Virus record (IMG/VR): IMGVR_UViG_2802429234_000007
Coordinates: 1-27,778 of that record
Length of the DNA: 27,778 nucleotides
Strand: one strand, 5' to 3'
Source of the DNA: a virus
Taxonomy: Duplodnaviria > Heunggongvirae > Uroviricota > Caudoviricetes
A program made the position numbers and the translations under genes. The notes beneath the pieces were generated by a model that was given only the letters and a program-made list of their open reading frames with translations, made no database searches and was not told where the DNA came from. This document shows positions 7,454 through 27,778 of this stretch, piece after piece. Positions within the stretch are counted from its first letter, which is position 1, and each line of letters begins with the position of its first letter.

Positions 7454-7779
7454 AAATCCACCTGCGCAGAGATCCCGCCAAAATCGTATGTACTCGCGGT
7501 TACCCACAGCCGCTTCTGACTTTCTTCACTGATTTCCACCGTACCCGGCACAATGCGTTCATCATCTTCAATCAGTAATTCCATGCGGGTAAAAATATCC
7601 GCTCTCATTGTCGGGCTACGTTCGGCGATTAATTCCGTCGCTAACCCGCTTTCAATAATGGAATGAATAATGTCCTGCCCGATACTTTTTCGGTTATTAC
7701 ATAATTCAGGTTCATTACCGGTATTCAGAACAAAGTCACCGCCCTGAATCAGTAAGTCGATATAGAGAACATTACTCAT
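7450..7779 (-). CDS. Small baseplate protein (gpW/gp25-like position), ~109 aa
   Basis: Start MSNVLYIDLL overlaps TMP stop (ATGA); size and position match P2 gpW / Mu gp46; sequence not confidently matched. Confidence 0.4.
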   Translation of the reverse strand: MSNVLYIDLLIQGGDFVLNTGNEPELCNNRKSIGQDIIHSIIESGLATELIAERSPTMRADIFTRMELLIEDDERIVPGTVEISEESQKRLWVTASTYDFGGISAQVDL

Positions 7780-9743
7780 GCGCCAAGCTCCTGCCATTCC
7801 ATAAGCTGGGATGGAGAAAGTGCTTCTTTGGTATGGAAATGCACTTCACCAATTTTCCGGCTGTTATCGGTTACAGATTTACTGTTGCTGCTGATTGTTT
7901 TGCTGATACCACCTTTATCCACACCTTTTAAATCACCACCCGTCGACAGTGTATTTCCGGTTAATGGCTGCGTGGTTTCACTGGCCAGTGAAATATCCAC
8001 GCCGGGAATTTTATTCAGTTTCTGAACAATCCAGTTCCACGATTTAAGAAATCCCCCTTTGATTGACTTCCAGACATTATCAAACAGCGACATAATGTCG
8101 GTGGCCATTCCCTTTAATGCCTCAGACGGTGAAAATCCTGTCAGCAAAGAAATAAAGCTGTTCCATCCTTCACTGATATATTGCCAGGCTGAAGCAAAGA
8201 TCCCCGCCAGCCATTTCACCACGGCGGCACATGTCTGGAAGGCTTCGGTATTCATCACCGCTGCTTTTATCGTGTCCCAGTGCTTAACCAGCAGATAACA
8301 ACCGACAACCAGCAGCGCAATGGCACCAATCACAAGCAGGATCGGCCAGCTCATCAGGTTGATACCAATTCCGGCCATTATTGCGGCCATGCGTACCGCC
8401 AGTAACGCACCGCGCAAAAACTTCAGCGTGGTATTCCAGGCGATTACCGCCATTTGCGACAGCCAGACAGTGGCCGTGTAGATTTTCGTAACCGCCGTTA
8501 ACGCCCCCCAGATCCCGCGCAGTCCCATCATGATGAATCTGGATACTCCCATCACGATATTGGCCACCGCACCCACGGCGGCAAAGCTCAGTAGTGCCAT
8601 CGACGCATAACCAATCACACGGGCAATGTTAGGAAATAACTGCATCCAGCGGGCAAAGGTCTGCCCCATATCAGCCAGGCGATTCAGAACCGGATACAGC
8701 ACCGGGATCAGCGTCAGCCCGATCACGGTCTGAATGGCTTTCAGGATTTGCACAAAGCGATCCCACGGCTTAACCATTTTTTGAGCCATTTCCTGGGTAC
8801 GCTTCAGACCGTCCGCGCCGCCCAGTTCGGTGATGTTCCGCTGAAGTAACGCGACATTGCCGTAAAGCTGTTTAACCACTGCAGAACTGTCACCAAAGGC
8901 TGCATCCAGTTCCGCCTGGGCTTTCAGGTTCCCTTCAAGGCTTTTGCCATATTTGCCCTGCAACTTGATCAGCATTTCAGGCATGGACAGCATTTTGCCG
9001 GTGGAGTCAGTAAAGGACAGCCCCAGCTTTTTAGCGCCATCAATCGCACCAGTCATAAATCCTTCATAGGCGCTGCTGGCTTCCGTTCCCAGTGTCCGCT
9101 GAAGTTGCCCCAGAACGGCCAGCTGTTCATCCAGTCCCACGCCGTAGTTAGTCCCTACGCCGCGCGCACCTTCCATCAAATCCTTGATAGTGGCCATTTC
9201 TGTGCCAAATGTTTTGCGCATATAAAGCATCTTGCCCGCCAGCTGTTCGGCAAATTCAACCTTGCCCAGTCTGGCGGCATCGGCGGAAAAGTTACCAAAC
9301 ATCTGCCCCATAAATTCCGCCGTGTCCGCCGCTGTGGACTTGAGCGCAAAAGCCAGGGTATTGGCGACTTTCGTCACCTTCGGCAGTTCATTACCCGTCA
9401 GTCCGGCAATGGAAGCGTTAATATTTTCCGTGGATTTAACGAACTCCACCGCGCTGGCACCGTAGGTTGTACTGAAGCGCAGGGCATCACGCTGAACGGT
9501 CTTAAGCGCGGAATCATCGATACCTTTTGCGGCGACATCATTCAGCGCGTCATACATTTCAATTGCCGGTGATAACGCGCCCCTGATCGCCATCCCGACA
9601 CCGGCCAGCGCCATCGCGCCGCCGCCAATCTGCATAAAGGCCGCTTTTGATTTTTCCGCAAAGCCGGTGACATTACCCTGCGCCTGTTTTAACGGGCGGG
9701 ATAATTTATCAATCAGGCTTAATGTAAAATCTAATTGTTTCAT
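7776..9743 (-). CDS. Tail tape measure protein
   Basis: 655 aa, Ala/Gly-rich with long hydrophobic central segment; directly after chaperone and frameshift region. Confidence 0.85.
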   Translation of the reverse strand: MKQLDFTLSLIDKLSRPLKQAQGNVTGFAEKSKAAFMQIGGGAMALAGVGMAIRGALSPAIEMYDALNDVAAKGIDDSALKTVQRDALRFSTTYGASAVEFVKSTENINASIAGLTGNELPKVTKVANTLAFALKSTAADTAEFMGQMFGNFSADAARLGKVEFAEQLAGKMLYMRKTFGTEMATIKDLMEGARGVGTNYGVGLDEQLAVLGQLQRTLGTEASSAYEGFMTGAIDGAKKLGLSFTDSTGKMLSMPEMLIKLQGKYGKSLEGNLKAQAELDAAFGDSSAVVKQLYGNVALLQRNITELGGADGLKRTQEMAQKMVKPWDRFVQILKAIQTVIGLTLIPVLYPVLNRLADMGQTFARWMQLFPNIARVIGYASMALLSFAAVGAVANIVMGVSRFIMMGLRGIWGALTAVTKIYTATVWLSQMAVIAWNTTLKFLRGALLAVRMAAIMAGIGINLMSWPILLVIGAIALLVVGCYLLVKHWDTIKAAVMNTEAFQTCAAVVKWLAGIFASAWQYISEGWNSFISLLTGFSPSEALKGMATDIMSLFDNVWKSIKGGFLKSWNWIVQKLNKIPGVDISLASETTQPLTGNTLSTGGDLKGVDKGGISKTISSNSKSVTDNSRKIGEVHFHTKEALSPSQLMEWQELGA

Positions 9744-10191
9744 TCAGTGCCTTTAAATGCTTTTGCCACACCATTGGCCACGGCGATCCCCGTATATTCC
9801 CAGTGCCGATTATCCAGCCATATAGCGGCGGCGATATCGTCAACAGAGTCCTGACCATGCGGTAAATAATGACGGCGTAGAATTAAATATTGTTCGAGTC
9901 CATTTCTTTCAATTTCATGGACTCGCTTTGTCAGTTTTTTACTTCAATTTCCAGTTCTGGCGCATAAATATCATTTACTTTGCCAACCAGTTGAAGTGCA
10001 GCACCCGGACGCTTTAATACTTCGGTCAGTGCTTCTTTACTTTCCGTTGCCACAATTCGCGTCAGATAGTTATGTGCCGGGGCAACTTTATTATCCATCG
10101 CCATTTCATTAATAAATTTGTTGTAGGCGGTCTGATTTGGTTCAAAAACAATATCAACACCACAAACACACAGTTTAATTTGTTCCATCAC
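9740..10191 (-). CDS. Tail assembly chaperone -1 frameshift fusion product (E+E' / GT analogue), ~150 aa
   Basis: Hand translation: -1 frame from A_AAA_AAC (9940..9934) stays open for 64 codons and stops at UGA 9742..9740, overlapping the TMP ATG at 9743..9741. Confidence 0.65.
9931..10191 (-). CDS. Tail assembly chaperone (P2 gpE / lambda G analogue), zero-frame product
   Basis: 86-aa ORF immediately upstream of tape measure; ends at slippery heptamer. Confidence 0.7.
   Translation of the reverse strand: MMEQIKLCVCGVDIVFEPNQTAYNKFINEMAMDNKVAPAHNYLTRIVATESKEALTEVLKRPGAALQLVGKVNDIYAPELEIEVKN
9934..9940 (-). other. Programmed -1 ribosomal frameshift slippery heptamer A_AAA_AAC
   Basis: mRNA reads GUA AAA AAC UGA at the chaperone ORF end; canonical X_XXY_YYZ heptamer. 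Confidence 0.65.
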
Positions 10192-10474
10192 TCATACTCT
10201 CTCTTAAATTAATTTCGTCCACTAACTGATTATGACGCGCAGCACACTGGCCATAAATTTCAGGATAAATTGTCAGTAATTCCGCTGCATCTTTTCCTGT
10301 CGTACCGTTCAGGCGCGGCAGCTGCGTGGTGCATTTAGTTTTCAGGTTTTCCTGATAACGCACGCTCGGTACCAGCTGCGGCGCTGTTGTACATGCTGAC
10401 AAACTCATCAGACAGACAATGATTGGTAAAAACGGGCTTAAGTATTTCCGTGCGTATCTCACGCGGTGCCACAT
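10175..10474 (-). CDS. o-spanin (Rz1-like outer-membrane lipoprotein), overlapped with Rz
   Basis: N-terminus MWHRVRYARKYLSPFLPIIVCLMSLSAC has basic n-region, hydrophobic core and lipobox LSAC; gene starts inside Rz in another frame and extends past its stop. Confidence 0.65.
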   Translation of the reverse strand: MWHRVRYARKYLSPFLPIIVCLMSLSACTTAPQLVPSVRYQENLKTKCTTQLPRLNGTTGKDAAELLTIYPEIYGQCAARHNQLVDEINLRESMSDGTN

Positions 10475-10673
10475 TTTTTAACGCCTCCAGTTTATCTTCC
10501 AGCGCTCTGGCTGAATCACTGGCAATGCCCTGCATTACTTTTCGCGATTCATTACCGGCCACCTGCGCCGCTGTATTGATCGCCAGCTCTAAGCTGTCAC
10601 GCCGCCAGTCAGCGGTCAGCCAGCCCCAGACAAACGCCAGCGCCACCACAACCAGCCACTGCCCGCTGCTCAT
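10335..10673 (-). CDS. i-spanin (Rz-like)
   Basis: 112 aa with N-terminal TM helix (WLVVVALAFVWGWL) and charged helical periplasmic domain; start overlaps endolysin stop. Confidence 0.65.
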   Translation of the reverse strand: MSSGQWLVVVALAFVWGWLTADWRRDSLELAINTAAQVAGNESRKVMQGIASDSARALEDKLEALKNVAPREIRTEILKPVFTNHCLSDEFVSMYNSAAAGTERALSGKPEN

Positions 10674-11014
10674 CAGCGCACCCCGTTATGTTCCAGGCTG
10701 AAATGATTACCATCAGGTCTGGATTTGAAGCGTCCGCCCCAGGAACCACCCAGTGATTCCCAGTATTCCCCCAGTGGCAGATAATCTTCTGTACGGGTTT
10801 TGTACTGACCGTTCACGAACAGATTGAAATCCACCGCCAGCCGCTGGGTGTGCAGGCTGTTAGAAATGCCGCTGCCTTTCTTCGCATTCAGCGCGGCCTG
10901 TTCTGGTGTACGGTAAGCCTCACCGAACGTCAGTCTGTAGCCATGTTCTTCTGCCCAGTGGATCAGACTGGCCACCATGACTGTGAATAATTGCTGTTTT
11001 TCACTCAGGGTCAT
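10673..11014 (-). CDS. Endolysin, peptidase M15-type (L-Ala-D-Glu peptidase-like)
   Basis: ~113 aa from MTLSEKQ; zinc-ligand-like pattern SLHTQRLAVDF ... DGNHFSLEH; sits between holin and spanins. Confidence 0.7.
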   Translation of the reverse strand: MTLSEKQQLFTVMVASLIHWAEEHGYRLTFGEAYRTPEQAALNAKKGSGISNSLHTQRLAVDFNLFVNGQYKTRTEDYLPLGEYWESLGGSWGGRFKSRPDGNHFSLEHNGVR

Positions 11015-11303
11015 TTGTCTTGCTCCCGTTCTGCTTTCCCGCTGCACGTCTGCGCAGCCACACTTCCACCGCCTGATAACCGGCAATCCCCAGCGCCGCC
11101 CCCAGCCCCTGAATGGCCAGCGGGCTGGCATCCGGGATCTGAATTAGTACCGCCCCGGCCACCACTGAAACCAGACTGCCCAGGATCACGCGACCGGCAA
11201 ACAGGCGCGGCGTGATTGGGTCATTACTGGTCAGCACATTGCCGATGGCAATCAGTGCGCCAATGATCAGCAGTGAATAAAGACTCTTTTCATGCTCCTG
11301 CAT
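11001..11303 (-). CDS. Holin (multi-TM small membrane protein with charged C-terminus)
   Basis: 100 aa, two to three hydrophobic segments, C-terminal RRRAAGKQNGSKTNDPE; immediately upstream of endolysin. Confidence 0.65.
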   Translation of the reverse strand: MQEHEKSLYSLLIIGALIAIGNVLTSNDPITPRLFAGRVILGSLVSVVAGAVLIQIPDASPLAIQGLGAALGIAGYQAVEVWLRRRAAGKQNGSKTNDPE

Positions 11304-11312
11304 CCCTGCCCC

Positions 11313-11768
11313 TTATCCGATCAGGTTTTCTGTGGCTTCCGCTTCCAGATACGGCACACCGTTGATGTTGACGAATTTCGGACTGGTCACGAAATATTTG
11401 ATTTTGTGCGTGGTCACGCCGCCCCCTTTCGGATCAATATCCAGCAGGTTGCTGACCTGCAATTTATTGCCGAACGTCTCCACCTTCATTTCTTCGCTAC
11501 TGGCTTTGGCATAGAAAAGAAAATCAAGTGGGGGAAGCCCACGCCATGAACCCGCTGCGCGGGCTTTGGCTGTCAGCACCTGAAGTGTTTTTGAACTGAC
11601 TTCAATTTCCCCTTCGGCGGCAACATCGCCGTCTACATACCCATCAGGGACGCCACGCGTCTGGGCGGCAGCGCTGTTATCCGTAATATCGAGCGTGATT
11701 TTCTCGATATGGATCAGATCGCCGTCCATATAGGTGTCAAACGACATACCCGAAATACGTTTGGTCAT
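11313..11768 (-). CDS. Putative tail tube protein
   Basis: 151 aa directly after putative sheath and before chaperone/TMP; assignment by position and size. Confidence 0.5.
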   Translation of the reverse strand: MTKRISGMSFDTYMDGDLIHIEKITLDITDNSAAAQTRGVPDGYVDGDVAAEGEIEVSSKTLQVLTAKARAAGSWRGLPPLDFLFYAKASSEEMKVETFGNKLQVSNLLDIDPKGGGVTTHKIKYFVTSPKFVNINGVPYLEAEATENLIG

Positions 11769-12892
11769 GCTGTGGCCTCCAGACTGGCATCCAGTAACAG
11801 ACTGATGGTGATTTGCAGCGGCACTTCCCAGGTGCGCACCACAATGTAAATATCCACCGCCTTTTTGTTCTTCCAGACAATGGTCACATCACTATCCTGC
11901 GGCGGCTTCACCTCTCCCGGAAATGACACACCATTAATGCTGGCTGCAGTGGACATTTCACGCAGTGGACGGGCGAACAGTGTCTGATGTGCGGCGATAC
12001 TTCCCGGCGTGCTGTTCAGCGAGCGATCTGCGATTTTACTGATAGCCAGCAGACGAACACGGCGGGCCGCTTTATCCGCAACGCGCAGGGTTTCAATCGA
12101 CTGATAATCGCCGCCCTCAACATCCAGCGTGCGGCCATCTGCCCAGTAAAAACCGTCATAATCCGGGTACCACATCGGCACACTGAAACGCTGTGCTTCA
12201 AGCGCCTGAAGTGTGGCCAGTTCCAGCACTTCTCCGGTACCATCAACCGGCATTTCATCACTGCCCAGATTCATCAGAGCACCGGTTTTAACCCGCGCCG
12301 GACTGTCAGCAATGGTTACCGCACGGCTACACAGGCGACCAGCCAGCACGCCCGGTTCATTTCCCCACAAGCGGGGAACCAGCTGCACCGCTTTTTCTGC
12401 AATACCATCCTGAAGGGTGGCCATGCGTACCAGATAATCCGCCTGGGCTTCTTCATCCTGCATTCCCTGTGCGGCCAGGATGAACCACACCCAGCGGCCA
12501 TACTTTGAAATCAGGGTGGTTCGTAACGTCACGGCCTGATTTACCTGCGCTTTAGCGGTCACATCGTCAGACAGCACCACGCCTTCCACAGAGCACACCA
12601 CCTGCGCGGCCAGAACCGCTTTCACCCAAGCATCTGCCTCCGCATCAGCTGGCAGGACGTGAATGAACCCCCACCAGTTCTGGCCAGCGTTCGCCAGCGC
12701 AGCCAGAACATCATTTTTCAGCGGGCTGGCTTCCTCGCCCAGCAGTGAATCAAAATCACTCTGGGCATTCACCGCCAGCGTTTTCCCCACATTTTTGGTA
12801 CCCGTACCGATAAACAGCAGTGTGCGTTCCACCTCATTGGTTTCACCCAACAGCTGATTTACCTGGTTTACGGTCACAATTGGCCAGGTCAT
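11765..12892 (-). CDS. Putative tail sheath protein
   Basis: 375 aa between tail completion S-like gene and tube; assignment by position and size, sequence not confidently matched. Confidence 0.5.
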   Translation of the reverse strand: MTWPIVTVNQVNQLLGETNEVERTLLFIGTGTKNVGKTLAVNAQSDFDSLLGEEASPLKNDVLAALANAGQNWWGFIHVLPADAEADAWVKAVLAAQVVCSVEGVVLSDDVTAKAQVNQAVTLRTTLISKYGRWVWFILAAQGMQDEEAQADYLVRMATLQDGIAEKAVQLVPRLWGNEPGVLAGRLCSRAVTIADSPARVKTGALMNLGSDEMPVDGTGEVLELATLQALEAQRFSVPMWYPDYDGFYWADGRTLDVEGGDYQSIETLRVADKAARRVRLLAISKIADRSLNSTPGSIAAHQTLFARPLREMSTAASINGVSFPGEVKPPQDSDVTIVWKNKKAVDIYIVVRTWEVPLQITISLLLDASLEATA

Positions 12893-13596
12893 GCTTTCCC
12901 CTTAATATCCTGCGCTTTAACGTCCCAGCCAAAGCCGATGGCCTGAAGCTGACGCGCCAGCGCCTTGTCAAATTCATCATCATTCATGCCCAAAAACACA
13001 CGGGCAGGAAGATCCACTGTCCAGCTGGTTTTCACGGCTTTACCGCTGAGTTTTCGAATCAGCAGCCCCGCCTGGCTGTATGGCATCGTTTTGGTGATTT
13101 CGCCCAGTGTGGGCTTTTTCCATCTCTTACCGGTTTTCACCCGGTATCCCAGCGCCCGTAATTTTTTGGCCTGGGCAGGCGTCGCCATTTTCCCGGCCTC
13201 TGCCTTCCGTGGCTGATTACTGCGGCTGACCTTTACGCGCATTCCGTTTTGTTGCGCGTAACCCACTGTTCCGGCTGGTACCGGCGTTTCCCCGTTCCGG
13301 TATCCGCCGCCCTGCAAATAGATCCACACAGCCTGAATTTCTGGCATTTCACGGATATGCAGCAGCTTTGGCAGGTTGCGCAGCATCTTCCCTTTGCGTT
13401 TTGTCTTACGTCCCGGCCACTTCTGGCCATCCGGGGATTCCTGATTGCGCACATGCCGTTTTGCCGCAGCAATCACGCCATATTTGGCCAGACGCCAGAT
13501 CAGACGCTGCTGTTTTCTCGGCGGCAGCTCCATGCTGGCCAGTGCCTTGCGCAATTCGGCCAGCTGTTTTTTATTCAGCTCGCCACCGGCAATCAT
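12889..13596 (-). CDS. Tail completion / virion morphogenesis protein (gpS-like)
   Basis: 235 aa, basic; position after R-like gene with ATGA overlap. Confidence 0.5.
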   Translation of the reverse strand: MIAGGELNKKQLAELRKALASMELPPRKQQRLIWRLAKYGVIAAAKRHVRNQESPDGQKWPGRKTKRKGKMLRNLPKLLHIREMPEIQAVWIYLQGGGYRNGETPVPAGTVGYAQQNGMRVKVSRSNQPRKAEAGKMATPAQAKKLRALGYRVKTGKRWKKPTLGEITKTMPYSQAGLLIRKLSGKAVKTSWTVDLPARVFLGMNDDEFDKALARQLQAIGFGWDVKAQDIKGKA

Positions 13597-17238: not shown

Positions 17239-17399
17239 ATCCCCCCTGTTCCACTCCCTGACGCTGCAAATCAATTATTGCCAAATAAAACCGCCACCGC
17301 ATTACGCTTTATTCTGAACAGTTCGGTTATAACGCTTTACCGAACAGACACGAATTAACACCACCGTTTTTTCATCACAGCCACGGCATAATTATCCGT

Positions 17400-19175: not shown

Positions 19176-20233
19176 GTAAAAAGAAACGCTTTGTTAAGCG
19201 CGACCAGCGTGGCGACAAATCAAAAAAGATGAGCATTATCACATTCGGCAAGCCTGAACCGGTTCTGACTACCGGCACAGATTACCGTGATATCTGGTAC
19301 GACAATGCAGCCGATCACTTCACCCAGCCGATAGACCGGCTGGCACTCGCGCAACTGATTAATCTTAACGGTCAGCACGGCGGCATCATTCACGCCCGTA
19401 AAAACATGATTGTTTCAGACTACCAGGGGGGCGGGCTTATTCATGACCAGCTGGAAGCGGCAGCGTTTGACTATATAACCTTTGGGGATATTGCGATTGC
19501 AAAAATTCGTAACGGCTGGGGCGACGTGATCGCACTTGAACCCTTGCCCGGTCTGTATATTCGCCGCCGCAAAGTCAGAGATAACGCGCTGGATAAGCCC
19601 GGTGACTACGTAGTGTTACAGGAAGGGGAACCGCAGGTATGGCCAGAAGAAGATATTATCTTCATCAAAATGTATGACCCGCAACAGCATATCTACGGAC
19701 TGCCGGACTACATCGGCGGTGTGCATTCCGCGTTACTTAACAGTGAAGCGGTCATTTTCCGACGCCGCTATTACCACAACGGTGCGCACACAGGCGGTAT
19801 TCTTTATACCCGTGATCCCAGCATGACGGACGAAATGGAGGAAGAAATTGAACAGCAGCTGCGTGACAGCAAAGGGATCGGTAACTTCTCCACCATCCTT
19901 GTAAACATTCCCGGTGGAGACGGCGACGCCATCAAATTCATTGAAATGGGGGATATTTCCGCGAAGGATGAATTTGCCAACATCAAAAACATCAGCGCCC
20001 AGGACATTCTGAACGCGCACCGTTTCCCTGCTGGCCTCGCCGGTATTGTCCCGCAGAACACTGCCGGACTGGGGGATGTTGAAAAGGCTGAACGCATTTA
20101 CAAGAAAAGCGAAATTGCCCCCATCCAGCGCCGCTTCATGCTGGCCGTTAACAACGATCCCGAAATCCCGGAAAGGCTACACCTTAACTTTGATTTAAGT
20201 TACACAGAATCAACGGATAAGGGTGCGGCATGA
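19172..20233 (+). CDS. Q: Portal protein, P2 gpQ-like
   Basis: 353 aa; ATGA overlap with terminase stop; size and P-Q synteny as in P2. Confidence 0.75.
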   Translation: MSKKKRFVKRDQRGDKSKKMSIITFGKPEPVLTTGTDYRDIWYDNAADHFTQPIDRLALAQLINLNGQHGGIIHARKNMIVSDYQGGGLIHDQLEAAAFDYITFGDIAIAKIRNGWGDVIALEPLPGLYIRRRKVRDNALDKPGDYVVLQEGEPQVWPEEDIIFIKMYDPQQHIYGLPDYIGGVHSALLNSEAVIFRRRYYHNGAHTGGILYTRDPSMTDEMEEEIEQQLRDSKGIGNFSTILVNIPGGDGDAIKFIEMGDISAKDEFANIKNISAQDILNAHRFPAGLAGIVPQNTAGLGDVEKAERIYKKSEIAPIQRRFMLAVNNDPEIPERLHLNFDLSYTESTDKGAA

Positions 20234-20283
20234 GGCGAAACAGGCTAAAATCCAGGCATCATTTAACAGCTGGAGCATGGAAT

Positions 20284-20553
20284 ATGCGAGTTCTGAAAAT
20301 CGAATGCCCGGAATGCGGCTCAAAGGCTGTTATTCGTAAAACGAACAGGAAGCACCGGCAGATTGCGGATATTTACTGCGCCTGTTCAGATGTTGAGTGT
20401 GGCCACACGTTTGTTATGAATCTGACGTTCTCCCACACTCTCAGCCCCAGCGTTAAAACGGGTGATGCGATGGTGCAAAAAATACTGAATGCACTTTCAC
20501 CCGATCAGCGCCAGATGGCATTAGACCTACTGAAAGCGACTCCCGCCGCCTGA
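20284..20553 (+). CDS. ogr: Ogr/Delta-family zinc-finger late transcription activator
   Basis: CPEC-x20-CACSDVEC four-cysteine motif near the N-terminus; GGAG RBS before ATG at 20284; alternative upstream ATG at 20230 overlaps the portal stop. Confidence 0.7.
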   Translation: MRVLKIECPECGSKAVIRKTNRKHRQIADIYCACSDVECGHTFVMNLTFSHTLSPSVKTGDAMVQKILNALSPDQRQMALDLLKATPAA

Positions 20554-20860: not shown

Positions 20861-22951
20861 CTACAACCACCCCGGCCACAGTTCCTGTAATGGCTCGTTT
20901 TGAGTCTCTTTAAGCCACCCGTTGCGGTAAATCAGTGCGCCCTGACCAAATCTCAAACCACTACCCCGCAGGAGAATGGCTATTTCTTCATCAGAACCAT
21001 CAAAACCCCGACTGCGTAATTCCAGTTTTAACCGTCTGCGGGTTCCCCCCTCCGTACAGTTATTGACAGAACTCCAAGGGGCGGCGTTGCCGCCAGAAAA
21101 ACCCGCCTCCGCTGGCGCTTCGGCCAACTTCGCAACCTTTTGCCACTTAACCAGACGGGTGCAGACTTCTGAATCAGGAACCAAAGGAGAATAAACACCC
21201 TGTACGCGCTGCACGTCCTCTGCGTATTCGTTTCCCTGTTCCGTAATTTCATAGGCCAGACGAACAACCAGATCACGGCGGGCAACCAGTGCACCGCCCT
21301 GCGCCTGGGTGTATGCAGCCCAGTCTCCGACATCAGCAGCAGCCAGAACCGCGTCCATTCTGCGATCGGTCAGCACCTGATCCCGCAACCGACGCAGCTC
21401 ACGCCACACGGTAACCGGCGCACCTCCAATCTGCTGAAACTGACGAATGCGCCAGCGTGAAGCCCACGCAGAAACTGATTTAGCCATATCACGCAGGTTC
21501 TCGCCGGTTTCTTCGTCCTGCTCACCATCCAGCGCAAAACCATCAATATTTTTTGAAATGTATTTCGCGATGTAGCCCGTGGCCGAACCTTTGGTGGGAT
21601 CGATAGCTTCAACGTGAAAACGCGCCTTAAGCGCCTTTTCAGATTGCAGTTCCTCAGAATCGGTAATTCTGGCGTGATAACAAAGAATATCGCGCACTGT
21701 GTCTACGTCCTGCGGGCGCATAAAAAGCAACATATGCCAGTGTGGTGTCCCGTCATGGTGAGGCTCAACAACCCGAAACCCAAATACATGAATACCCGCA
21801 CGCGAGATCGCTGCGCGGGCTTTTGCCCATACGCCGCATAAATAGCGCTGGGTATCCTGCGGCGTACATCCATCCCATTGCGATACAAAGCCCCCTTTGC
21901 TGTGTACCGCATGGAAACGTGATGGCGCGGTGATGGTGTAAAACTCACCGGCCAGCCCTTCTTCATTGGCCATATCTTCAAACCCCCGCATTCTTACCAT
22001 TAGCTCACAGCGACGGATCGCCGGATTTGCAACGCTGTGGTGCACCATGCTGTCCAGTGCAATGCGCAACCCCTCATCATTCAGCAGATCAAACTTTTTA
22101 AAGAACTCCAGATTCCGCTTTTTCTGGTCTATCCATTCGCCCAGGGTTTTACGGGATACATAAGCGCTGGCCGCTTTCTGCACCTGTCCCACAGCTATGG
22201 CCATATGTTCGCGCTGCGTGTCACGCGCTCGCTTCAGGCGCAGATACCACCATTCTGGCGCCATCATGCGCAGTATCCCGGATTCCGCCTTACGTGTTTC
22301 CAGTTGCCCGCCATTGGCTTCATGTTCTGCCCAGTATGGCGGCTGATTGTTCAGCATCACGGAACACGTGCATAAATGGCGGTAAGACTCCAGCGTACGG
22401 CGGCGCATCTCTGCGGCATCGTCAGTGCTGCCCACAAACTGATCGGTGAATTCATAAAGTGACTGAGAGAGCCAGCCAGATATCTGGCCAGCCAGTTTTT
22501 TGATGTCCGGGCGGTCAAGTGACGGTAGTCGCTCCAGCGACTTACCGAAAGGAAGATCAAGTGCATCAGCGGCCAGTTTGTAACGTGCAGCCACTTTGCG
22601 CAGACGTGGCAATACATTCTCACCGATAGTTTTACGCAGGAATGTATTGGCACGGCGACGCCCGTCACAACCAGCCAGCAGCTTTTCGTAACGGTTGCCG
22701 AAATACCCGGCTAACCAGTCGGGTATCTCATGCAGGTACTGGGAACGCCACTCATAATCCTGTGGGTTAACAGCCCACAGGCGACGTTCTGTGATCGTCG
22801 CATCTGACGGGGTGCTAGGCGCAAAGGTTTCACGCCGCCAGGCATTGACGGCATGGTGTTGGCCAGGCTCCAGCATATCAACCACGGTTACCTTCCGGCA
22901 GGTGGGAAAGCAGCTGTGGCATAAGGCGGGCATTGCTGCCCACCCACTCAA
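20861..22951 (-). CDS. A: Replication initiation protein (P2/186 gene A-like rolling-circle endonuclease)
   Basis: ~690 aa; HUH motif PHWHMLLF and tyrosine motif GYIAKYISKN; exact start uncertain (several in-frame Met). Confidence 0.85.
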   Translation of the reverse strand: MSGWAAMPALCHSCFPTCRKVTVVDMLEPGQHHAVNAWRRETFAPSTPSDATITERRLWAVNPQDYEWRSQYLHEIPDWLAGYFGNRYEKLLAGCDGRRRANTFLRKTIGENVLPRLRKVAARYKLAADALDLPFGKSLERLPSLDRPDIKKLAGQISGWLSQSLYEFTDQFVGSTDDAAEMRRRTLESYRHLCTCSVMLNNQPPYWAEHEANGGQLETRKAESGILRMMAPEWWYLRLKRARDTQREHMAIAVGQVQKAASAYVSRKTLGEWIDQKKRNLEFFKKFDLLNDEGLRIALDSMVHHSVANPAIRRCELMVRMRGFEDMANEEGLAGEFYTITAPSRFHAVHSKGGFVSQWDGCTPQDTQRYLCGVWAKARAAISRAGIHVFGFRVVEPHHDGTPHWHMLLFMRPQDVDTVRDILCYHARITDSEELQSEKALKARFHVEAIDPTKGSATGYIAKYISKNIDGFALDGEQDEETGENLRDMAKSVSAWASRWRIRQFQQIGGAPVTVWRELRRLRDQVLTDRRMDAVLAAADVGDWAAYTQAQGGALVARRDLVVRLAYEITEQGNEYAEDVQRVQGVYSPLVPDSEVCTRLVKWQKVAKLAEAPAEAGFSGGNAAPWSSVNNCTEGGTRRRLKLELRSRGFDGSDEEIAILLRGSGLRFGQGALIYRNGWLKETQNEPLQELWPGWL

Positions 22952-26764: not shown

Positions 26765-27778
26765 ATGAACCTTACAATCAATCAATGCATCGTTTTATTT
26801 AACATTTTATTTGTGGTTGTTTACATGGGTTATTTATTCAAGATAAATGCATTCAAGATGAATGCTGAACCTCTTACGCATCAACCATTATTCAAAGCCG
26901 CACTGGCAATTCCAATAATTAGTTTTTTTCTGCTCGGATTTGTTGCATGGAATGGTCACAATGTTCAAATCGATACGGAAGGATTTAATAATTTCCTAAA
27001 CATTAGTAAACTTCCTTTAGCTGTTTTATCTTTATCGATTCCACTGGGAGTAGTTGTCAATAATATTCATCGAACAATACAAACAGATAAACAAATCAAA
27101 GAAGCAGAAAAGAAAAACAAAGTGGATTTTTTCTATACCCATAGAAAAAACACTATAGAAGCATTACAACACCTTGAATCTTTAGACATTCCTTTGATAA
27201 AAAAGAACGCAAAATTAGAATTTGAAAATTGTTATTCTACATATCGTAAATGCTATCCTTATGCTTCAACTACTAATAATAATTTTGATGCTTCCAAGGA
27301 CTACATACAAAATGCAGAATTAATTTGGTGCCAACTAGTTGAACTATTTAAAAAAGAAGAAATTAATGACTATACAGAGTTATACACCCATATACATAGC
27401 ATTGAAAAACTATTAGAATTATTGCACAACCTTTATGGACTAAAGCGTTTAGATATTGAAAAACTCTATCAGTGCTCAACCCACGGTGAAGATGAATATA
27501 TTTTATTCTTAAAAACAAAATTTTCGGATGAATTGGATATAAAAAAATATCTACAATCATACTGGCACTTTCATTTAAAAATGGTTGAGATACTTGAATA
27601 TAATTTCACCACTGACTTTGTGCTACTTATGAAGGATATAATAAGTTATTCAATCAATAATCGTGATAGAAAATACCCCTTATTTCAATATCACACTACA
27701 ATTGACGCAAGCGTTCCTCAGTTCATTAAGTTAAAAATCAGCAAAAGAGATCCACAAAATGTCCATGCAGAGTGTTAG
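26765..27778 (+). CDS. AT-rich membrane-anchored protein of unknown function (337 aa), candidate lysogenic-conversion or defence cargo
   Basis: Complete ORF starting 6 nt after the int stop; three N-terminal hydrophobic helices then a ~235-aa Lys/Glu-rich helical domain; much lower GC than the rest of the phage. Confidence 0.6.
   Translation: MNLTINQCIVLFNILFVVVYMGYLFKINAFKMNAEPLTHQPLFKAALAIPIISFFLLGFVAWNGHNVQIDTEGFNNFLNISKLPLAVLSLSIPLGVVVNNIHRTIQTDKQIKEAEKKNKVDFFYTHRKNTIEALQHLESLDIPLIKKNAKLEFENCYSTYRKCYPYASTTNNNFDASKDYIQNAELIWCQLVELFKKEEINDYTELYTHIHSIEKLLELLHNLYGLKRLDIEKLYQCSTHGEDEYILFLKTKFSDELDIKKYLQSYWHFHLKMVEILEYNFTTDFVLLMKDIISYSINNRDRKYPLFQYHTTIDASVPQFIKLKISKRDPQNVHAEC

What the first reader, a model, noticed from the sequence alone, without database searches (positions are those of the whole stretch)
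10175..11303. Lysis cassette embedded inside the tail operon
Holin, M15-type endolysin and overlapped Rz/Rz1 spanins lie between the putative tube gene and the tail chaperone/tape-measure genes, tightly coupled by overlapping start and stop codons. In P2 the lysis genes sit between head and tail completion genes, so this is a different, mosaic arrangement. The lysin is an M15 peptidase rather than the P2 gpK lysozyme type.
Basis: partly seen in the sequence, partly recalled or inferred. Interest (0 to 1): 0.45.

Follow-up and report, generated by a model that had tools for sequence, protein, structure and literature searches.

The report
Ordinary HP1-type phage lysis cassette
The four small genes are a normal phage lysis cassette (holin, zinc-peptidase endolysin, two-part spanin), and their position between the tail tube and tail chaperone genes is standard for the HP1-like branch of P2-family phages, so the finding is correct but ordinary.

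Summary
On the minus strand, 11303-10175 holds a holin (100 aa, Pfam PF04550, 54% identical to P2 gpY), an M15 zinc-peptidase endolysin (113 aa), an i-spanin (112 aa) and an overlapped +1-frame o-spanin (99 aa, lipobox LSAC). They lie 9 nt after the tail tube gene. The genes overlap one another and the tail assembly chaperone gene by 1-140 nt.

The window is a P2-family prophage (Peduoviridae, genus Quadragintavirus). It is 96% identical to Escherichia phage ESSI2_ev129, whose RefSeq record already names these genes holin, endolysin and Rz-like spanin.

The placement differs from P2, 186 and Mu. It matches Haemophilus phage HP1 (orf24-hol-lys-orf25-orf26-orf27) and all ten other HP1-type genomes sampled, from Vibrio, Aeromonas, Yersinia, Salmonella, Pseudomonas, Pasteurella, Pseudoalteromonas, Cronobacter and Escherichia.

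The slot is conserved but its contents are swapped. Here a P2-type holin and a distantly LysC-like o-spanin sit with an M15 lysin also found in unrelated Pseudomonas and Vibrio phages.

Verdict: already known, low interest. By-products are a truncated o-spanin annotation in reference records and a conserved A_AAA_AAC frameshift site at the end of the chaperone gene.

The parts
11001..11303 (-). Holin, 100 aa, P2 gpY family. It has two strongly and one weakly hydrophobic segment and a basic C-terminal tail (RRRAAGK...).
   Evidence: PF04550 132.7 bits (cut-off 25) and phrog_175. 54% identical to P2 gpY, E=2e-35. 44% identical to the Salmonella phage SI7 holin in the same slot. No similarity to HP1 Hol. 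Hydropathy and the GGGG Shine-Dalgarno sequence 9 nt after the tube stop are.
10673..11014 (-). Endolysin, 113 aa, single-domain M15 (LAS-type) zinc peptidase. It has no signal or SAR segment.
   Evidence: PF13539 41.3 bits against a cut-off of 25. H55-x6-D62 and H104 are invariant in 22 homologues and align to the H-x6-D...H motif of Ply500. The three closest solved sequences that are peptidoglycan hydrolases are L-Ala-D-Glu peptidases 2VO9, 8Q2G and 2MXZ. The top four Foldseek hits are 2VO9, 5OPZ, 2MXZ and 6AKV (weak, E about 0.01-0.08, model pLDDT 77). Maximum 17-residue hydropathy is 0.79.
10335..10673 (-). i-spanin (Rz equivalent), 112 aa, with an N-terminal transmembrane segment (residues about 3-23) and one periplasmic Cys (C86).
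   Evidence: phrog_1152 'Rz-like spanin' E=1e-34. Hydropathy. Alignment with ESSI-2, YenM_324, SI7, HP1 orf25 and P2 LysB. The start overlaps the lysin stop (TGATG).
10175..10474 (-). o-spanin (Rz1 equivalent), 99-aa precursor. It has a basic n-region, a hydrophobic core, lipobox L25-S26-A27-C28 and Thr at +2. It lies in the +1 frame, shares 140 nt with Rz and extends 160 nt beyond it ('overlapped' architecture).
   Evidence: Lipobox regex hit and frame. phrog_2425 E=2e-31 and phrog_456 E=5e-6. PF23793 LysC 25.4 bits (cut-off 27) and NCBIfam P2_Rz1 18.9 bits (cut-off 27). C28, C48 and C77 are invariant across ESSI-2, YenM_324, SI7, HP1 and P2 LysC. GGAGG lies 9 nt before the ATG.
11313..11768 (-). 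Tail tube gene, the upstream boundary of the lysis slot.
   Evidence: PF10772 Phage_HP1_Orf24 E=8e-64. 59% identical to HP1 orf24.
9931..10188 (-). Tail assembly chaperone gene, the downstream boundary of the lysis slot. Its start overlaps the o-spanin stop by 14 nt.
   Evidence: PF10963 Phage_TAC_10 E=8e-37. 44% identical to HP1 orf26.
9740..9940 (-). Slippery heptamer A_AAA_AAC (9940-9934) and the -1 frame extension of the chaperone, which ends at the tape measure start. This belongs to the flanking tail genes, not to the lysis cassette.

Best explanation
This is the lysis cassette of an HP1-like P2-family temperate phage (Peduoviridae, Quadragintavirus/ESSI-2 group), in the position that is standard for that lineage: directly after the tail tube gene and before the tail assembly chaperone and tape measure genes.

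Shown here: the four gene identities, their coupling, the lack of a promoter or terminator signal above chance, and the conservation of the slot across genera.

Inferred from established knowledge of holin-endolysin-spanin lysis:
1. The cassette has no promoter of its own. It is transcribed as part of one roughly 16.7-kb late operon (17274 to 582, minus strand), probably switched on by the phage's Ogr/Delta-type zinc-finger activator (20230-20553).
2. The gpY-type holin accumulates in the inner membrane and, at a set time, forms large holes.
3. The soluble 113-aa M15 zinc peptidase, which has no export signal, passes through the holes and cuts the peptide stems of the cell wall. The most likely target is the L-Ala-D-Glu bond.
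4. The inner-membrane Rz-like protein and the outer-membrane lipoprotein Rz1 span the periplasm as a complex. Once the wall is gone they fuse the inner and outer membranes and release the phage.

The slot is conserved, but the cassette in it has been exchanged during evolution. Here the holin is P2-type, the o-spanin is distantly LysC-like, and the lysin belongs to a family shared with unrelated Pseudomonas and Vibrio phages.
For: Related genomes: the region is 96% identical in nucleotides to Escherichia phage ESSI2_ev129, whose RefSeq record annotates holin, endolysin and Rz-like spanin at the same places. It is 97.6% identical to prophages present in 40 of 5426 complete E. coli genomes, where PGAP annotates 'phage holin family protein' and 'M15 family metallopeptidase'.

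The same order, tube then lysis genes then chaperone then tape measure, is seen in HP1, K139, phiO18P, YenM_324, SI7 and BIBS67, ESSI-2, and PV94, C5a and Pmp6. With ESSI2_ev129 that makes 11 of 11 sampled genomes, out of 76 phage records carrying this tube protein.

The flanking tube and chaperone genes are orthologous to HP1 orf24 and orf26.

The minus-strand chain of 22 genes has no non-coding gap above 47 nt. Promoter-like and terminator-like sites in 9500-13000 do not exceed the shuffled expectation (3 found against 3.2 expected for each), and no minus-strand site lies within the cassette.

[quoted passage not shown] The ESSI-2 and HP1 spanin pairs are already catalogued as overlapped two-component spanins (PMC6139136).

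Exchange of contents: the holin matches P2, 186 and PSP3 holins but not HP1 Hol. The lysin matches neither HP1 Lys nor P2 K, but it matches lysins of Pseudomonas PaP2 and PaMx43 and many Vibrio phages at 45-57% identity.
Against: Nothing here is experimental, so lysis function, bond specificity and co-transcription are all inferred.

The o-spanin falls just below the curated cut-offs of the P2 LysC models (25.4 and 18.9 bits against 27).

The lysin model is of medium quality (pLDDT 77). Its fold matches are weak (E about 0.01, TM about 0.5), so the M15 assignment rests mainly on the Pfam score and the invariant H-x6-D...H residues.

The third transmembrane segment of the holin is only weakly hydrophobic in a simple hydropathy scan.

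No recognisable P2-type late promoter dyad (TGT-N12-ACA) was found upstream of the operon, so the promoter itself is not identified.
Confidence: 0.93

Rival explanations
1. The cassette is a recent, local mosaic insertion into the tail operon of this particular prophage: a P2-type lysis module transposed into a new site. On this reading the arrangement would be unusual.
For: The holin is 54% identical to P2 gpY and the o-spanin weakly resembles P2 LysC. P2 and 186 keep these genes elsewhere.
Against: The same slot holds a lysis module in 11 of 11 sampled HP1-type genomes from nine host genera, including HP1 itself. The junctions are tightly coupled with no scars, repeats or promoter. The lysin and the i-spanin are not P2-like. 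What was exchanged is the contents of the slot, not the slot.
Confidence: 0.04
2. The M15 protein is a virion-associated, tail-borne cell-wall hydrolase used at infection, and the neighbouring small membrane proteins are tail or assembly factors. This is the refutation the first reader proposed.
For: The genes sit in the middle of the tail genes and are translationally coupled to them. Some phages do carry peptidoglycan hydrolases in their tails (general knowledge).
Against: The holin has 132 bits to a holin family, including the characterised P2 gpY. The two downstream genes have the defining spanin features: an N-terminal transmembrane segment, and a +1-frame lipoprotein with a lipobox. The lysin is a 113-aa single domain not fused to any structural protein. 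Its homologues in unrelated phages are annotated as endolysins, and in PaMx43 it lies next to a putative holin.
Confidence: 0.02
3. The 99-codon +1-frame ORF called Rz1 is a chance ORF, and outer-membrane disruption is done by something else.
For: RefSeq and PGAP records annotate only a 62-aa 'hypothetical protein' without the signal sequence. Scores against the curated LysC models are below cut-off.
Against: phrog_2425 E=2e-31. The full-length frame, the lipobox Cys and two further Cys are conserved in phages with 43-74% identity, and in HP1 and P2 LysC. A GGAGG Shine-Dalgarno sequence precedes the ATG. The ESSI-2 o-spanin is listed in the published spanin census (PMC6139136).
Confidence: 0.01

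Closest known systems
Lysis region of Escherichia phage ESSI2_ev129 and relatives (Quadragintavirus; also Cronobacter phage ESSI-2, Yersinia phage vB_YenM_324, Salmonella phage SI7)
   Same: Same genes in the same order and with the same overlaps. Nucleotide identity to ESSI2_ev129 is 96%, and the tube and holin proteins are 100% identical. The RefSeq record annotates holin, endolysin and Rz-like spanin.
   Different: A patch of about 100 nt in the 5' part of the lysin gene (10900-10999) is only 67% identical to ev129 but 100% identical to an E. coli prophage. The reference records truncate the o-spanin to 62 aa.
Haemophilus phage HP1 hol-lys-orf25 region (Hpunavirus)
   Same: Identical position: sheath (orf23), tube (orf24), hol, lys, Rz-like orf25, an unannotated overlapped Rz1, chaperone (orf26), tape measure (orf27). 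The tube and chaperone proteins are 59% and 44% identical to those of the window.
   Different: The lysis proteins themselves show no BLAST similarity. HP1 Lys is 186 aa with a hydrophobic N-terminus, not an M15 peptidase. HP1 has an 86-nt gap before hol; the window has 9 nt.
Phage P2 lysis cassette Y-K-lysA-lysB-lysC
   Same: The holin is a gpY homologue (54% identity). The spanin genes have the same overlapped architecture as lysB/lysC. The o-spanin shares the lipobox Cys, two further Cys and a T-x-G-D motif with LysC.
   Different: In P2 the cassette lies between X and R/S, upstream of the tail completion genes and in a different operon from FI/FII/E/T. The lysin is an M15 peptidase and not the gpK lysozyme. 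There is no lysA. The i-spanin shows no BLAST similarity to LysB.
M15 L-alanyl-D-glutamate peptidase endolysins (T5 endolysin 2MXZ, Listeria phage A500 Ply500 2VO9, Bacillus phage B4 LysB4 6AKV)
   Same: Same H-x6-D...H zinc-ligand pattern and the same best-matching fold.
   Different: Only about 22-25% identity. The window protein is shorter (113 aa) and has no cell-wall-binding domain. Its bond specificity has not been tested.

Membership tests
Phage holin, P2 gpY family (Pfam PF04550 Phage_holin_3_2) | Sequence match above the curated family threshold and similarity to the characterised member gpY | tested here: met
   132.7 bits against a cut-off of 25. 54% identity to P2 gpY over 90 aa, E=2e-35.
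Phage holin, P2 gpY family (Pfam PF04550 Phage_holin_3_2) | Small membrane protein with several transmembrane segments and a charged C-terminal tail, encoded next to the endolysin | tested here: met
   100 aa, with hydrophobic stretches at 5-28 and 32-64 and a weaker one at about 61-83, and the tail RRRAAGKQNGSK. It overlaps the lysin start by 14 nt. The number of segments was not checked with a dedicated predictor.
Phage holin, P2 gpY family (Pfam PF04550 Phage_holin_3_2) | Timed, lethal hole formation in the inner membrane | not testable with these tools
   Needs expression and lysis assays.
Peptidase family M15 (LAS zinc peptidases), endolysin type | Pfam M15 model above its gathering score | tested here: met
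   PF13539 41.3 bits against a cut-off of 25, E=2.4e-10.
Peptidase family M15 (LAS zinc peptidases), endolysin type | Zinc ligands H-x6-D and a distal H | tested here: met
   H55, D62 and H104 are invariant in 22 homologues and align to the corresponding H, D and H of Ply500 (2VO9).
Peptidase family M15 (LAS zinc peptidases), endolysin type | LAS fold | tested here: inconclusive
   The AlphaFold model has pLDDT 76.7. The top four Foldseek PDB hits are all M15 L-Ala-D-Glu peptidases, but with E=0.01-0.08 and TM 0.43-0.53.
Peptidase family M15 (LAS zinc peptidases), endolysin type | Cleavage of the L-Ala-D-Glu bond of peptidoglycan | not testable with these tools
   Inferred only from the nearest solved relatives.
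Two-component spanin, overlapped architecture (P2 LysB/LysC type) | i-spanin with an N-terminal transmembrane anchor and a periplasmic domain | tested here: met
   Hydrophobic segment at residues 3-23, the rest polar. phrog_1152 'Rz-like spanin' E=1e-34.
Two-component spanin, overlapped architecture (P2 LysB/LysC type) | o-spanin with a lipoprotein signal and lipobox [LVI][ASTVI][GAS]C and no Asp at +2 | tested here: met
   LSAC at 25-28, Thr at +2, basic n-region R4, R6, R9, K10. The Cys is invariant in six phages.
Two-component spanin, overlapped architecture (P2 LysB/LysC type) | o-spanin gene starts inside the i-spanin gene in the +1 frame and extends beyond its end | tested here: met
   Start at 10474 lies inside Rz (10335-10673), frame offset 1, and the gene ends at 10175. 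The definition is from PMC6139136.
Two-component spanin, overlapped architecture (P2 LysB/LysC type) | Sequence membership in the curated P2 LysC models (PF23793, NF038368) | tested here: not met
   25.4 and 18.9 bits against cut-offs of 27. BLAST to LysC matches only the signal and lipobox region. The i-spanin shows no BLAST match to LysB. It therefore works like LysB/LysC but is not filed as a member of that sequence family. The published census puts the ESSI-2 i-spanin in a family of its own and its o-spanin in a group with 9NA, FSL_SP-062 and FSL_SP-069, not with P2.
HP1-like Peduoviridae late operon layout | HP1-type sheath (DUF2586) and tube (PF10772) followed by the lysis module, then chaperone (PF10963) and tape measure | tested here: met
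   The same layout is present in 11 of 11 sampled genomes.

The most novel reading that the evidence does not exclude
The tube-to-chaperone slot of HP1-like phages acts as a recombination hotspot in which whole or partial lysis cassettes are swapped between otherwise unrelated phages. On this reading the window's cassette is a three-way hybrid: a P2-lineage holin, a lysin from a pool shared with Pseudomonas and Vibrio phages, and its own spanin family. The 100-nt divergent patch inside the lysin would be a trace of ongoing exchange. This fits the known mosaicism of phage lysis genes and would be a modest evolutionary observation, not a new mechanism.
Probability: 0.5. Interest if true: 0.2.

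Novelty: already known. Interest (0 to 1): 0.1.

Why it matters
It matters little beyond correct annotation. The window can be filed as an ESSI-2/Quadragintavirus-type prophage with a complete, intact lysis cassette.

There are two practical points:
- Reference annotations of this group truncate the o-spanin and so lose its lipoprotein signal.
- P2 alone is a misleading yardstick for gene order in the P2 family, because the HP1-like branch places its lysis genes after the tail tube gene.

Tried and rejected
- Direct BLAST of the window's holin, lysin and Rz against the HP1 proteins in the same slot gave nothing. The shared position is therefore not due to shared cassette sequence.
- BLAST of Rz against P2 LysB and of the lysin against P2 K gave nothing.
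- NCBIfam gave no call for four of the five proteins.
- A single-sequence search of the lysin against PDB sequences gave only a spurious top hit to an NRPS carrier domain. A profile was needed to bring up the M15 peptidases.
It was repeated without them.
- The consensus promoter and terminator scan found nothing above the shuffled expectation.
- The P2-type late promoter dyad TGT-N12-ACA occurs four times in the window, against about 6.8 expected by chance. None lies in the divergent late promoter region or near the cassette.
- The HP1 (1996) and K139 (2002) genome papers are not held in the library. The historical statement therefore rests on the GenBank/RefSeq records themselves.
- The 152-aa ORF that starts at 11131 was rejected as the lysin because nearly all close homologues are 113 aa.
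Full report
**Observation**

All genes in this part of the window are on the minus strand. The interval 11303-10175 matches the start of a 100-aa ORF and the stop of a 99-aa ORF exactly. Read in the direction of transcription, the order is:
- sheath, 11765-12892 (DUF2586, phrog_907 'tail sheath')
- tube, 11313-11768 (PF10772 Phage_HP1_Orf24, E=8e-64)
- holin, 11001-11303 (PF04550, E=6e-39)
- lysin, 10673-11014 (PF13539 Peptidase_M15_4, 41.3 bits against a cut-off of 25)
- Rz-like i-spanin, 10335-10673 (phrog_1152, E=1e-34)
- Rz1-like o-spanin, 10175-10474 (phrog_2425 E=2e-31; phrog_456 'Rz-like spanin' E=5e-6; PF23793 LysC 25.4 bits, just under its cut-off of 27)
- tail assembly chaperone, 9931-10188 (PF10963, E=8e-37)
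- tape measure, 7776-9743

The junctions are +9, -14, -1, -140 and -14 nt, so the 'tightly coupled' description is right. Each start is preceded by a plausible Shine-Dalgarno sequence: GGGG for the holin, GGGAG for the lysin and GGAGG for Rz1.

The mechanical ORF list extends the lysin to 152 aa from an ATG at 11131, inside the holin gene. Nearly all of the 120 nearest homologues listed are 113 aa, so the start is the ATG at 11014.

**Anatomy of the four proteins**

Holin. It has two strongly hydrophobic stretches, a weaker third one and a basic C-terminal tail. It is 54% identical to the P2 holin gpY.

Lysin. It has no hydrophobic segment; the maximum 17-residue hydropathy is 0.79. It is therefore a soluble cytoplasmic enzyme that needs a hole-forming holin.
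- H55, D62 and H104 are invariant among 22 homologues.
- In a profile search of PDB sequences these residues align with the H-x6-D...H motif of the Listeria phage endolysin Ply500. The other L-Ala-D-Glu peptidases 8Q2G and 2MXZ (the latter from phage T5) are the next relevant hits.
- An AlphaFold model of medium quality (pLDDT 76.7) gives 2VO9, 5OPZ, 2MXZ and 6AKV as the top four Foldseek hits. All are M15 L-Ala-D-Glu peptidases, but the scores are weak (E 0.01-0.08, TM about 0.5).
- The M15 call therefore rests mainly on Pfam and the metal-ligand motif, and the fold result is consistent with it.

Rz. It has an N-terminal membrane anchor and a polar remainder with one Cys.

Rz1. It has a textbook lipoprotein signal: basic residues R4, R6, R9 and K10, a hydrophobic core, lipobox LSAC with Cys28, and Thr at +2. 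It is read in the +1 frame, starts 199 nt into Rz and ends 160 nt beyond it. That is the 'overlapped' architecture as defined in the spanin census (PMC6139136). The lipobox Cys and two further Cys are invariant across ESSI-2, YenM_324, SI7, HP1 and P2 LysC.

**What the window is**

The region is 96% identical to Escherichia phage ESSI2_ev129 (Peduoviridae, Quadragintavirus). Its RefSeq record already labels these genes holin, endolysin and Rz-like spanin. It is 97.6% identical to prophages found in 40 of 5426 complete E. coli genomes.

The rest of the window carries the expected P2-family genes: portal, terminase, capsid, Ogr/Delta zinc finger, gpA replication protein, CII, CI and integrase. 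The ev phages were described as ESSI-2-related temperate coliphages from infant gut samples (PMC6969025).

**Synteny**

- P2 has L-X-Y-K-lysA-lysB-lysC-R-S in one operon and FI-FII-E-E'-T-U-D in another. Phage 186 has the same layout.
- Mu places its lysis genes before the terminase genes.
- HP1 has orf23 (sheath), orf24 (tube), hol, lys, orf25 (Rz-like), orf26 and orf27. An unannotated overlapped Rz1 with lipobox LLAC lies at L002:20916-21182.
- The window's tube and chaperone proteins are 59% and 44% identical to HP1 orf24 and orf26.

The tube protein finds 76 phage records. I inspected 11 genomes from nine host genera: ESSI2_ev129, HP1, K139, phiO18P, YenM_324, SI7, BIBS67, ESSI-2, PV94, C5a and Pmp6. 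Every one has a lysis module, or at least an annotated lysin, between the tube gene and the chaperone and tape measure genes.

[quoted passage not shown] The position is therefore typical of the lineage and not a local rearrangement.

**Contents of the slot**

The slot is conserved but its contents are not.
- The window's holin, lysin and Rz show no BLAST similarity to the HP1 proteins in the same positions.
- The holin family is the one used by P2, 186, PSP3, Wphi and others at the P2 position, and also by a Burkholderia siphophage.
- The lysin family is absent from the P2-type phages in that search. It occurs in Pseudomonas PaP2 and PaMx43 and in hundreds of Vibrio phages at 45-57% identity, and in prophages across the Enterobacterales at 82-94%.
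- Other HP1-like phages carry longer lysins in the slot, of 153-195 aa; the one in C5a is annotated as a pesticin-like muramidase.
- The published census puts the ESSI-2 i-spanin in a family of its own and its o-spanin with 9NA and two Salmonella phages.

This is ordinary lysis-cassette mosaicism.

**Mechanism**

The minus-strand chain of 22 genes from 17274 to 582 has no non-coding gap above 47 nt. Consensus promoter-like and terminator-like sites around the cassette do not exceed the shuffled expectation, and no minus-strand site lies within the cassette. The cassette is therefore most likely transcribed with the late structural genes, under the phage's Ogr/Delta-type activator (inferred).

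The remaining steps follow the established holin-endolysin-spanin pathway. The holin triggers and forms holes in the inner membrane. The soluble M15 peptidase reaches the wall and degrades it. The Rz-Rz1 complex then fuses the inner and outer membranes. None of this is tested here.

**Rivals**

- A recent local insertion is contradicted by conservation of the slot across genera.
- A structural (tail lysin) role is contradicted by the holin and spanin identities and by the small, unfused lysin.
- A chance Rz1 ORF is contradicted by its conservation and family score.

**Verdict**

The arrangement is nonetheless the known standard for HP1-like members of the P2 family, and a near-identical phage is already annotated this way. 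Novelty: already known. Interest: low.

Noticed in passing
window 9934-9940 (heptamer) and 9740-9940 (-1 frame), minus strand: The chaperone gene ends GTA AAA AAC TGA. The slippery heptamer A_AAA_AAC lies 3 nt before the stop. The -1 frame is open from there to 9740 and overlaps the tape measure start at 9743, so a -1 frameshift would give a longer chaperone like P2 E+E'. The run TAAAAAA is invariant in HP1, YenM_324, SI7, ESSI-2, K139 and PV94, and six of the seven sequences read AAAAAAC, although neighbouring codons vary. PGAP annotates only a 27-aa 'DUF6890' ORF in this gap.
   Followed up: partly
window 10175-10474 (-); L001 6476-6664; L006 4895-5083; L009 1976-2164: The RefSeq and PGAP records for ESSI2_ev129, YenM_324 and the E. 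coli prophages annotate the o-spanin as a 62-aa protein that starts downstream of the lipobox, so the lipoprotein signal is lost. The conserved full form is 99 aa. The ESSI-2 record has the 99-aa form.
   Followed up: yes
L002 (HP1, NC_001697) 20916-21182 (+): The HP1 record lacks its o-spanin. An 88-aa ORF with lipobox LLAC overlaps the end of orf25 by 83 nt and aligns with the window's Rz1 and with P2 LysC.
   Followed up: partly
window 10900-10999: A patch of about 100 nt in the 5' part of the lysin gene is only 67% identical to ESSI2_ev129, while the flanks are 97-100% identical. The same patch is 100% identical to an E. coli EC101 prophage. It looks like a small recombination tract.
   Followed up: partly
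protein P0001 (one 1771-bp ENA contig): A 198-aa protein carries both the holin (PF04550) and M15 (PF13539) domains and is 99% identical to the window lysin. It is probably a frameshift or assembly artefact at the 14-nt holin/lysin overlap, not a real fusion.
   Followed up: no
L004, L005, L008, L013, L014 (K139, phiO18P, BIBS67, PV94, C5a), just after the tube gene: Several HP1-like phages carry a small DksA-like zinc-finger gene between the tube gene and the holin or lysin. phiO18P also has a DNA methyltransferase between holin and lysin. The window has neither, only a 9-nt gap.
   Followed up: no
window 26765-27778 (+): A 337-aa ORF directly downstream of the integrase has no Pfam match and matches only phrog_17460 (unknown function). 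It ends exactly at the window edge. It may be prophage cargo.
   Followed up: no
window about 17300-17345: The divergent region between the scaffold gene (minus strand) and the large terminase gene (plus strand) contains a dyad TTCGG-N13-CCGAA. It contains no P2-type TGT-N12-ACA site. The dyad is a candidate binding site for the Ogr/Delta-like activator encoded at 20230-20553.
   Followed up: no
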